Source: Escherichia coli (GTDB lineage: Bacteria > Pseudomonadota > Gammaproteobacteria > Enterobacterales > Enterobacteriaceae). From it: 64,000 bases of DNA. Below the pieces are notes generated by a model that was given only the letters and a program-made list of their open reading frames with translations, had not been told where the DNA came from and did no database searches. Below are positions 3,799-55,533 of the stretch, piece by piece. The position numbers and the translations under genes were made by a program. Location of the stretch: assembly GCF_030013595.1 (NCBI RefSeq), contig NZ_CP122768.1. The stretch is one strand, 5' to 3'. Position 1 is the first letter of the stretch, and each line of letters opens with the position of its first letter.

Positions 3799-3872
3799 GT
3801 GAGGAGACAGGAATTGCCGGAAATAGTAGTCTGCTAAGTGAAGCGCATCAGGCAATTTCGCAAATCGCAGAT

Positions 3873-3902
3873 AGCAAAAAAGCGCCTTTAGGGCGCTTTT
3901 TT
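3873..3902. terminator. bidirectional rho-independent terminator (xapR on one side, tRNA operon on the other)
   Basis: GC hairpin agcgcc-ttta-gggcgct flanked by A-run upstream and T-run downstream. Confidence 0.6.
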
Positions 3903-3906
3903 ACAT

Positions 3907-3982
3907 TGGTGGGTCGTGCAGGATTCGAACCTGCGACCAATTGATTAAAAGTCAACTGCTCTACCAACTGAGCTAACGACCC
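3907..3982 (-). tRNA. lysV: tRNA-Lys (anticodon UUU)
   Basis: Reverse complement reads GGGTCGTTAGCTCAGTTGGTAGAGC...CTTTTAA...ACCCACCA, 76 nt, cloverleaf-consistent. Confidence 0.95.
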
Positions 3983-3986
3983 GAAG

Positions 3987-4062
3987 TGGTGGGTGATGAC
4001 GGGATCGAACCGCCGACCCCCTCCTTGTAAGGGAGGTGCTCTCCCAGCTGAGCTAATCACCC
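3987..4062 (-). tRNA. valY: tRNA-Val (anticodon UAC)
   Basis: Reverse complement reads GGGTGATTAGCTCAGCTGGGAGAGCACCTCCCTTACAAGGAGG...CACCCACCA, 76 nt. Confidence 0.95.
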
Positions 4063-4108
4063 ACTTCGGTACTTCACATTTTTACAAGAAATTTAGCTGG
4101 CGAGAAAG

Positions 4109-4184
4109 TGGTGGGTGATGACGGGATCGAACCGCCGACCCCCTCCTTGTAAGGGAGGTGCTCTCCCAGCTGAGCTAATCACCC
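4109..4184 (-). tRNA. valX: tRNA-Val (anticodon UAC), second copy
   Basis: Identical 76-nt sequence to the copy at 3987-4062, separated by a 46-nt spacer. Confidence 0.95.
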
Positions 4185-4442
4185 CCGCTGTGTGGAGTCG
4201 CATTATAGGGAGAGTTCAAAATGAGTCAACGCATTTTCTAAAGAAATTGTTCGTTCGTCGTAAATTTAAGCAAGATGATCGCAAAACAGACCGTTTTGCG
4301 CAATTTGTCAACGAAAACAATAATGCGTAAGGTTGCAACCCGAACTACATTGAGGAATCAGGCGGGAGTGATAGAATATCGCCCACTCAATTTTTCCAGG
4401 ATTTGCCGGTTGTCGGCATCTTTCTAAACGTAAGGCCATTTC

Positions 4443-5858
4443 ATGAAAATCAAAACTCGCTTCGCGCCAAGCCCAACAGGCTATCTGCACGTTGGCGGCG
4501 CGCGTACTGCTCTTTACTCCTGGCTTTTTGCACGTAACCACGGCGGTGAGTTCGTGCTGCGTATTGAAGACACCGATCTTGAGCGTTCCACGCCGGAAGC
4601 TATCGAAGCCATTATGGATGGCATGAACTGGCTGAGCCTGGAGTGGGATGAAGGTCCGTACTACCAGACCAAACGTTTTGATCGCTACAACGCGGTGATC
4701 GATCAGATGCTGGAAGAGGGCACAGCTTATAAATGTTATTGCTCTAAAGAGCGCCTGGAAGCGCTGCGCGAAGAGCAAATGGCGAAAGGTGAGAAGCCGC
4801 GTTATGACGGTCGCTGCCGCCACAGCCATGAGCATCATGCTGATGATGAACCGTGCGTTGTACGTTTTGCTAACCCGCAGGAAGGTTCTGTTGTTTTTGA
4901 CGATCAGATCCGTGGCCCGATTGAGTTCAGCAACCAGGAGCTGGATGATCTGATTATCCGTCGTACCGATGGTTCTCCAACCTATAACTTCTGTGTGGTG
5001 GTTGACGACTGGGATATGGAAATCACCCACGTTATCCGTGGCGAAGACCATATCAACAACACGCCACGCCAGATCAACATTCTTAAAGCACTGAAAGCGC
5101 CGGTACCGGTTTACGCGCACGTTTCTATGATCAACGGCGATGACGGCAAAAAACTGTCCAAACGTCACGGGGCGGTCAGCGTAATGCAGTATCGTGATGA
5201 CGGTTATTTGCCAGAAGCACTGCTGAACTATCTGGTGCGTCTGGGCTGGTCCCACGGCGATCAGGAAATCTTCACTCGTGAAGAGATGATCAAATACTTC
5301 ACCCTGAATGCCGTCAGCAAATCTGCCAGTGCGTTCAACACCGACAAGCTGCTGTGGCTGAACCATCACTACATTAACGCGCTGCCGCCGGAGTATGTTG
5401 CTACTCACTTACAGTGGCACATTGAGCAGGAAAATATCGATACCCGTAACGGCCCGCAGCTGGCTGATCTGGTGAAACTGCTGGGCGAACGCTGCAAGAC
5501 GCTGAAAGAGATGGCACAGAGCTGCCGTTATTTCTACGAAGATTTTGCTGAGTTCGATGCCGACGCCGCGAAAAAACATCTGCGTCCGGTAGCGCGTCAG
5601 CCGCTGGAAGTAGTTCGTGACAAACTGGCCGCGATTACTGACTGGACCGCTGAAAACGTTCATCACGCTATTCAGGCGACGGCGGATGAGCTGGAAGTGG
5701 GCATGGGTAAAGTTGGTATGCCGCTGCGTGTCGCCGTAACCGGTGCGGGGCAGTCTCCGGCGCTGGATGTTACCGTTCACGCAATCGGTAAGACCCGCAG
5801 TATCGAGCGTATCAACAAAGCGCTGGCTTTTATTGCTGAACGCGAAAATCAGCAGTAA
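4443..5858 (+). CDS. gltX: glutamyl-tRNA synthetase
   Basis: 471-aa ORF; class I aaRS HIGH-type motif ([11 protein letters not shown]) and KLSKR motif. Confidence 0.97.
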
Positions 5859-6882: not shown

Positions 6883-6958
<76 letters not shown>

Positions 6959-6997
6959 AATTTTGCACCCAACAAATTTGGTACGTAAACGCATCGT

Positions 6998-7073
<76 letters not shown>

Positions 7074-55328: not shown

Positions 55329-55461
55329 TTTTTGGGACTCCTGGCTGATTAAGTATGTCGATAAGGCGTTTCCATCCGTCACGTAATTTACGGGTGATTC
55401 GTTCAAGTAAAGATTCGGAAGGGCAGCCAGCAACAGGCCACCCTGCAATGGCATATTGCAT
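55297..55461 (-). CDS. cIII: cIII (FtsH protease inhibitor)
   Basis: Manual translation gives [54 protein letters not shown] (54 aa); below ORF-track cutoff. Confidence 0.85.
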   Translation of the reverse strand: MQYAIAGWPVAGCPSESLLERITRKLRDGWKRLIDILNQPGVPKNGSNTYGYPD

Positions 55462-55533
55462 GGTGTGCTCCTTATTTATACATAACGAAAAACGCCTCGA
55501 GTGAAGCGTTATTGGTATGCGGTAAAGCCGCGC

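What the first reader, a model, noticed from the sequence alone, without database searches (positions are those of the whole stretch)
3907..4184. Only two tRNA-Val(UAC) copies upstream of lysV, where K-12 has three
The tRNA operon divergent from gltX here contains Val-Val-Lys (identical Val copies, 46-nt spacer), whereas K-12 as I recall carries valU-valX-valY-lysV. This is either a natural copy-number contraction by recombination between repeats or an assembly collapse of a tandem repeat.
Basis: partly seen in the sequence, partly recalled or inferred. Interest (0 to 1): 0.25.

Follow-up and report, generated by a model that had tools for sequence, protein, structure and literature searches.

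The report
Two-copy valine tRNA array variant
This E. coli strain carries two instead of the usual three identical valine-tRNA genes in the valU operon next to gltX; this is a common, already documented copy-number variant caused by slippage between identical repeats, and it is ordinary.

Summary
On the minus strand the window has a promoter, tRNA-Val(UAC), a 46-nt spacer, an identical tRNA-Val(UAC), CUUC, tRNA-Lys(UUU) and a terminator, divergent from gltX. K-12 MG1655 has three Val genes here (valU-44 nt-valX-46 nt-valY-lysV).

Relative to MG1655 the window lacks exactly one 120-bp unit (one Val gene plus the 44-nt spacer). Everything else in the operon is base-for-base identical.

This is a known, recurrent polymorphism. 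Among 5,426 complete E. coli genomes:
- 5,042 carry the canonical 46-Val-44 junction.
- About 300 carry two-copy arrays, in two alternative forms that keep either the 46-nt or the 44-nt spacer.
- 26 carry a single copy.
- Roughly 70-80 each carry duplicated 46/46 or 44/44 junctions, with up to four copies.

BW25113, ABU 83972 and ECGC74 have the same two-copy form as the window, and a paper states that BW25113 lacks valX. The closest relative in the collection (99.9% identical flanks) carries the other two-copy form, so the events are independent and frequent.

The most likely cause is a real deletion by misalignment between the identical 76-bp genes. Assembly collapse cannot be excluded without reads but is unlikely. 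Interest is low.

The parts
4202..4229 (-). Sigma-70 promoter of the valU operon: TTGACT, 16-nt spacer, TATAAT
   Evidence: The promoter scan gives 11 of 12 matches. Its position fits the published transcription start 9 nt upstream of valU (PMC4176162). The sequence is identical to K-12.
4109..4184 (-). Promoter-proximal tRNA-Val(UAC). It has the valU-type 5' leader and is followed by the valX-type 46-nt trailer, so it is a valU/valX hybrid position.
   Evidence: ARAGORN, Rfam tRNA at 65.9 bits, and exact identity to the K-12 Val genes.
4063..4108 (-). 46-nt spacer, identical to the K-12 valX-valY spacer. The 44-nt valU-valX spacer is absent.
   Evidence: Alignment A1 and exact string match.
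3987..4062 (-). Second tRNA-Val(UAC), in the valY position next to lysV
   Evidence: ARAGORN and Rfam; 100% identical to the other copy.
3983..3986 (-). 4-nt CUUC spacer between valY and lysV
   Evidence: Read from the sequence. It matches the spacer described in PMC4176162.
3907..3982 (-). tRNA-Lys(UUU), lysV
   Evidence: ARAGORN, Rfam at 79.2 bits, and identity to K-12.
3874..3904 (-). Rho-independent terminator of the operon: a 13-bp hairpin followed by a U run
   Evidence: The RNA fold gives -19.1 kcal/mol with z = -4.6. The sequence is identical to the K-12 terminator, and the terminator is described in PMC4176162.

Best explanation
This is the normal E. coli valU tRNA operon in a two-copy allele (promoter, Val, 46-nt spacer, Val, CUUC, Lys, terminator). 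One 120-bp repeat unit, a Val gene plus the 44-nt valU-valX spacer, was lost from the canonical three-copy array. The loss occurred by misalignment between the identical 76-bp Val genes at the valU and valX positions, either through replication template switching (slippage) or unequal sister-chromatid exchange. The operon remains intact and should still be transcribed as one precursor and processed by RNase P. It now yields two Val tRNAs and one Lys tRNA per transcript. If the lysT operon elsewhere in the genome is standard, the genome's tRNA-Val(UAC) gene count drops from five to four, with little expected phenotypic effect. Shown here: the anatomy, the exact one-unit difference, and the population spectrum. 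Inferred: the mechanism, that the deletion is real rather than an assembly artefact, and its near-neutrality.
For: - **Exact one-unit loss.** The window differs from K-12 across promoter, array and terminator only by the absence of 120 bp (Val plus sp44). All retained modules are identical.
- **Both single-unit deletions exist.** The sp46-Val-leader junction occurs in 132 genomes and the lysV-Val-sp44 junction in 214. A whole-array two-copy-type match is found in 324 of 5,426 genomes.
- **Further contraction and expansion exist.** There are 26 single-copy genomes (TG1), 79 with a 46-Val-46 junction and 70 with a 44-Val-44 junction. O145:H28 RM13514 has four copies and strain C has a 46/46 array.
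- **The canonical junction dominates.** It is present in 5,042 genomes.
- **Independent genomes share the window's architecture.** These are BW25113, ABU 83972 and ECGC74. PMC5053530 states that BW25113 lacks valX relative to MG1655.
- **The nearest relative carries the other allele.** HCP5S3_I2 differs by 6 SNPs in about 7 kb outside the spacer yet has the 44-nt allele. The next relatives (ST2747, 99.1%) have three copies. This implies independent recent events.
- **The operon signals are intact.** The promoter and terminator are both preserved.
- **Loss should be tolerated.** Most tRNA transcription-unit deletions caused minimal growth change, and valUXY-lysV was not among the essential or defective units named (PMC11480407).
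Against: - No reads are available, so a collapse of the array during assembly cannot be ruled out for this particular sequence.
- Some of the public two-copy records could themselves be assembly artefacts, which would inflate the counts.
- The counts come from junction-specific BLAST coverage thresholds, not from a per-genome parse. The 132 count also includes some three-copy 46/46 arrays, for example strain C.
- Whether the deletion arose in this lineage or was imported by recombination cannot be told, because the modules are identical in all strains.
Confidence: 0.85

Rival explanations
1. Assembly collapse: the strain really has three Val genes, and the assembler dropped one 120-bp unit of the tandem array.
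For: The array consists of identical 76-81-bp cores, which short k-mers cannot resolve. The two closest public assemblies (HCP5S3_I2 and LCP30S3_I5) show reduced copies at both the Val and the Ala tandem loci, which could hint at assembler behaviour in some pipelines.
Against: - The same window keeps two identical tRNA-Ala(GGC) genes only 39 nt apart and two identical Val genes, so this repeat class was resolved.
- The repeat core (81 bp or less) is shorter than ordinary reads, and the spacers are unique.
- The window is a 64-kb contiguous stretch that includes prophage sequence.
- The identical allele exists in many independent complete genomes and is reported for BW25113.
Confidence: 0.1
2. 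The two-copy allele was not generated in this lineage. It was imported ready-made from another E. coli by homologous recombination.
For: The allele circulates in diverse lineages. E. coli recombines frequently (general knowledge). The nearest relative has a different allele at the same site.
Against: Flanks on both sides stay 99.9% identical to the nearest relative, with only 6 scattered SNPs and no cluster next to the array. A de novo one-unit deletion from a three-copy ancestor is simpler and is known to be frequent.
Confidence: 0.1
3. Two copies is the ancestral state, and K-12's three copies is a derived duplication.
For: Expansions do occur.
Against: The canonical array has two different spacers (44 and 46 nt, unrelated in sequence beyond 5 nt), so it is not a recent duplication. 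It is present in 5,042 of 5,426 genomes across pathotypes. The next-nearest relatives of the window have three copies.
Confidence: 0.02

Closest known systems
E. coli K-12 MG1655 valU-valX-valY-lysV operon
   Same: It has the same location between xapR and gltX, and the same promoter, leader, Val and Lys gene sequences, 46-nt spacer, CUUC spacer and terminator.
   Different: The window lacks one Val gene and the 44-nt valU-valX spacer (120 bp). It also lacks the roughly 156-bp RtT-like element downstream of lysV.
E. coli BW25113 (CP009273), reported as lacking valX; also J53, ABU 83972 and ECGC74
   Same: The array is identical: lysV, CUUC, Val, 46-nt spacer, Val, leader. The literature notes the valX loss.
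   Different: BW25113 and J53 keep the RtT-like element, whereas ABU 83972 and ECGC74 lack it as the window does. The flanking genes differ by 1-4%.
The alternative two-copy allele that keeps the 44-nt spacer (KOr019, HCP5S3_I2, O103:H2 12009, several ST131 strains)
   Same: It also has two Val genes plus lysV, in the same operon and context.
   Different: The deleted unit is Val plus the 46-nt spacer (122 bp), meaning a crossover between the valX and valY positions rather than valU and valX.
RecA-independent deletion between short tandem repeats (Lovett laboratory 101-bp tetA assay)
   Same: Both involve direct repeats of about 80-100 bp that are adjacent or nearly so, with loss of exactly one period.
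   Different: That assay measures events on plasmids. Here the event is chromosomal and only inferred from its end product.

Membership tests
valU tRNA operon of E. coli (valU-valX-valY-lysV) | Located between xapR and gltX and transcribed divergently from gltX | tested here: met
   same flanking genes and same orientation.
valU tRNA operon of E. coli (valU-valX-valY-lysV) | tRNA-Val(UAC) type 1 genes and tRNA-Lys(UUU), identical to the K-12 genes, with a 4-nt CUUC junction | tested here: met
valU tRNA operon of E. coli (valU-valX-valY-lysV) | Single promoter upstream of the first Val gene and a Rho-independent terminator after lysV | tested here: met
   Promoter-like site with 11 of 12 matches. 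Hairpin of -19.1 kcal/mol plus a U run. Transcription itself was not tested.
valU tRNA operon of E. coli (valU-valX-valY-lysV) | Three Val genes separated by 44-nt and 46-nt spacers | tested here: not met
   Only two Val genes and only the 46-nt spacer are present. This is an allele of the operon, not the reference form.
Repeat-mediated (misalignment) tandem deletion | The missing segment equals exactly one repeat period, with end points inside identical repeats | tested here: met
   120 bp (76 + 44) is missing, and the flanking Val copies are 100% identical.
Repeat-mediated (misalignment) tandem deletion | Reciprocal and alternative products (other deletions, expansions) are seen at the same array in the population | tested here: met
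   arrays of 1, 2 (both types), 3 (46/44 and 46/46) and 4 copies.
Repeat-mediated (misalignment) tandem deletion | Arises during replication, independent of RecA | not testable with these tools
   Known only from the literature on model repeats.
Assembly collapse artefact | Excess read depth over the repeat, and reads containing the missing spacer | not testable with these tools
   No reads are available.
Assembly collapse artefact | Other tandem identical tRNA genes in the same assembly are also collapsed | tested here: not met
   The alaW/alaX-type pair at 6883-7073 is kept as two identical copies.

The most novel reading that the evidence does not exclude
The valU array may act as a fast, reversible dosage dial. 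Frequent slippage would generate 1-4 Val copies, and selection on translation demand would pick among them. In that case the two-copy state here, together with the different two-copy state in the nearest relative, would reflect parallel adaptive tuning of tRNA-Val(UAC) supply in this lineage rather than neutral drift.
Probability: 0.07. Interest if true: 0.3.

Novelty: already known. Interest (0 to 1): 0.06.

Why it matters
It matters little. The practical value is for annotation and comparison: a two-copy valU array should not be flagged as an error or as a strain-defining novelty. About 6% of complete E. coli genomes have it, including the widely used BW25113 background. The survey also gives a small, clean example of how unstable tandem tRNA gene arrays are. 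Copy number runs from 1 to 4, with both deletion products and both expansion products present, and with changes even among K-12 laboratory derivatives and within clonal groups. Despite this instability, 93% of genomes keep the canonical form, which is consistent with selection on tRNA gene dosage.

Tried and rejected
- **Counting two-copy genomes with a 1.5-kb query.** This gave 205 and undercounts, because divergence or insertions on the xapR side break the match. I replaced it with junction-specific queries of 164-172 nt and a 430-nt whole-array query.
- **Treating the 132 count as pure two-copy genomes.** The 132 sp46-Val-leader genomes cannot be read that way. Strain C appears in both and has a three-copy 46/46 array. 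The window-type allele is therefore estimated at only about 80-110 genomes (324 minus about 214-222, and minus 26 if single-copy genomes were joined).
- **Counting genomes without the RtT-like element.** This failed because the tool joined the two pieces in genomes that carry RtT, so the figure of 3,944 is uninformative.
- **My script's test for the RtT duplication.** It used too long a seed and returned false negatives. The annotation tables were used instead.
- **Looking for the window's own genome in the E. coli collection.** The best matches were 99.9% and 99.8% over the array, so the source assembly is not in that collection and its sequencing method is unknown.
- **Collection scans.** I did not scan the metagenome or GTDB collections, because a hit would not distinguish a real deletion from a collapse.
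- **PMC10195153.** It lists valY/lysV as a recurrently mutated intergenic target in experimental evolution. The mutation types were not given in the main text, so it was not used as evidence.

Full report
**Observation.** ARAGORN finds three tRNA genes on the minus strand (nothing else nearby in the whole window):
- tRNA-Lys(UUU) at 3907-3982
- tRNA-Val(UAC) at 3987-4062
- tRNA-Val(UAC) at 4109-4184

Rfam confirms the three tRNAs. The two Val genes are identical, in fact over 79 nt including three flanking bases. They are separated by a 46-nt spacer. The second Val gene is separated from lysV by 4 nt (CUUC on the operon strand), and gltX starts at 4444 on the opposite strand. The finding's description is therefore accurate.

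**Operon anatomy.**
- A strong sigma-70-like promoter (TTGACT, 16 nt, TATAAT; 11 of 12 matches) lies at 4229-4202 on the minus strand. This fits the published transcription start 9 nt upstream of valU (PMC4176162).
- Directly after lysV there is a 13-bp hairpin followed by a U run (-19.1 kcal/mol, z = -4.6). This is the Rho-independent terminator that RNase P removes first during processing of this transcript.
- All signals needed for expression are intact.

**Comparison with K-12.** MG1655 (NZ_CP097881.1) has xapR, an RtT-like element, lysV, Val, a 46-nt spacer, Val, a 44-nt spacer, Val and then gltX.

In the four-way alignment the window is identical to K-12 through the promoter, leader, Val and Lys genes, 46-nt spacer and terminator. 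It lacks exactly 120 bp: one Val gene plus the 44-nt valU-valX spacer. The deletion end points fall inside identical 76-bp genes, so the crossover point cannot be located. This is the expected footprint of misalignment between the valU and valX copies.

**Population context.** I used junction-specific queries against 5,426 complete E. coli genomes:

| Junction or query | Genomes |
|---|---|
| Canonical sp46-Val-sp44 | 5,042 |
| sp46-Val-leader (window type) | 132 |
| lysV-Val-sp44 (the other possible single-unit deletion) | 214 |
| lysV-Val-leader (one copy) | 26 |
| sp46-Val-sp46 | 79 |
| sp44-Val-sp44 | 70 |
| 430-nt query spanning the whole two-copy array, matched at 80% coverage or more | 324 |

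Inspection of individual records, with exact module strings, shows the full range:

| Copies | Array form | Examples |
|---|---|---|
| 1 | Val only | TG1 |
| 2 | 46 type | BW25113, O111:H8 8B, ABU 83972, ECGC74 |
| 2 | 44 type | KOr019, HCP5S3_I2 |
| 3 | canonical 46/44 | MG1655, ST2747 |
| 3 | reshuffled 46/46 | strain C |
| 4 | 46/46/44 | O145:H28 RM13514; a record labelled DH5alpha |

Because strain C-type arrays also contain the sp46-Val-leader junction, the window-type two-copy allele is somewhat rarer than 132 genomes. I estimate roughly 80-110. Two-copy arrays of either type make up about 5-6% of complete genomes.

**Literature.** PMC5053530 states that BW25113 lacks valX relative to MG1655. 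The same allele is therefore already documented in the most widely used E. coli knockout background.

**Recurrence.** The closest genomes in the collection, HCP5S3_I2 and LCP30S3_I5, are 99.9% identical over 9.8 kb. HCP5S3_I2 differs from the window by only six SNPs in about 7 kb outside the spacer. Yet it carries the other two-copy allele, the one with the 44-nt spacer. The next relatives (99.1%) have three copies.

The simplest history is a three-copy ancestor and two independent single-unit deletions. Variation among K-12 derivatives also points to a high event rate: MG1655 has 3 copies, BW25113 and J53 have 2, and TG1 has 1. The same holds within O157:H7, where F6321 has 3 copies, FRIK944 has a 44-type junction and Xuzhou21 has 1. 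This agrees with experimental work showing that deletion between about 100-bp tandem repeats in E. coli is frequent and RecA-independent, through template switching at the fork (PMC8378479).

**Real deletion or assembly collapse?** This cannot be settled without reads. Several points argue against collapse:
- The same window retains two identical tRNA-Ala(GGC) genes 39 nt apart, as well as the two identical Val genes.
- The identical core (81 bp or less) is shorter than ordinary reads, and the spacers are unique.
- The identical architecture (no RtT element, Val-46-Val-Lys) is found in independent finished genomes.

I put collapse at about 10%.

**Consequence.** The operon should still give one precursor, processed 3' to 5' by RNase P, now delivering two Val tRNAs and one Lys tRNA. 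If the lysT operon, which lies outside the window and was not examined, is standard, tRNA-Val(UAC) gene dosage falls from five to four.

In a systematic deletion study most tRNA transcription units could be deleted with minimal growth effect. The valUXY-lysV unit was not among those reported as essential or defective (PMC11480407). Losing one of its Val genes is therefore expected to be nearly neutral in the laboratory. That 93% of genomes nevertheless keep the canonical array, despite frequent slippage, suggests weak purifying selection on dosage. This is an inference and was not tested.

**Verdict.** The feature is an already known and common allele of a well-studied operon. Interest is low.

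Noticed in passing
window 3840-3925 (indel point about 3896/3897, ambiguous within the repeat): The window lacks the roughly 156-bp RtT-like element that K-12, BW25113, O111:H8 8B, ST2747 and TG1 carry between the lysV terminator and xapR. In those strains the element is bracketed by direct repeats of about 58 bp (the terminator plus the first 18 nt of the lysV 3' end), so its presence or absence is a second repeat-mediated indel at this locus. Both states are common in complete genomes.
   Followed up: partly
window 6883-7073 (+): Two identical tRNA-Ala(GGC) genes (alaW/alaX type) are separated by 39 nt. The nearest relative, HCP5S3_I2, has only one copy here, with a 115-bp difference. This is the same kind of tandem tRNA copy-number polymorphism as the Val array.
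   Followed up: partly
window 55416-55474 (-): There is a strong Rfam hit to the lambda phage CIII thermoregulator element (88.5 bits). This indicates a lambdoid prophage in the far part of the window.
   Followed up: no
L007, L008 and L009, positions 1-225 (strain C, O145:H28 RM13514, 'DH5alpha' CP026085): In these strains the gene next to lysV is a FlxA-like (prophage-type) gene instead of xapR. Mobile DNA may therefore insert beside lysV in some lineages. The record labelled DH5alpha is 4.83 Mb and carries this gene, which is odd for a K-12 derivative.
   Followed up: no
window 4295: The window has T at this position, where all compared strains have G, in the gltX-valU intergenic region. 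It is the only difference from the best array-spanning matches (99.8%).
   Followed up: no
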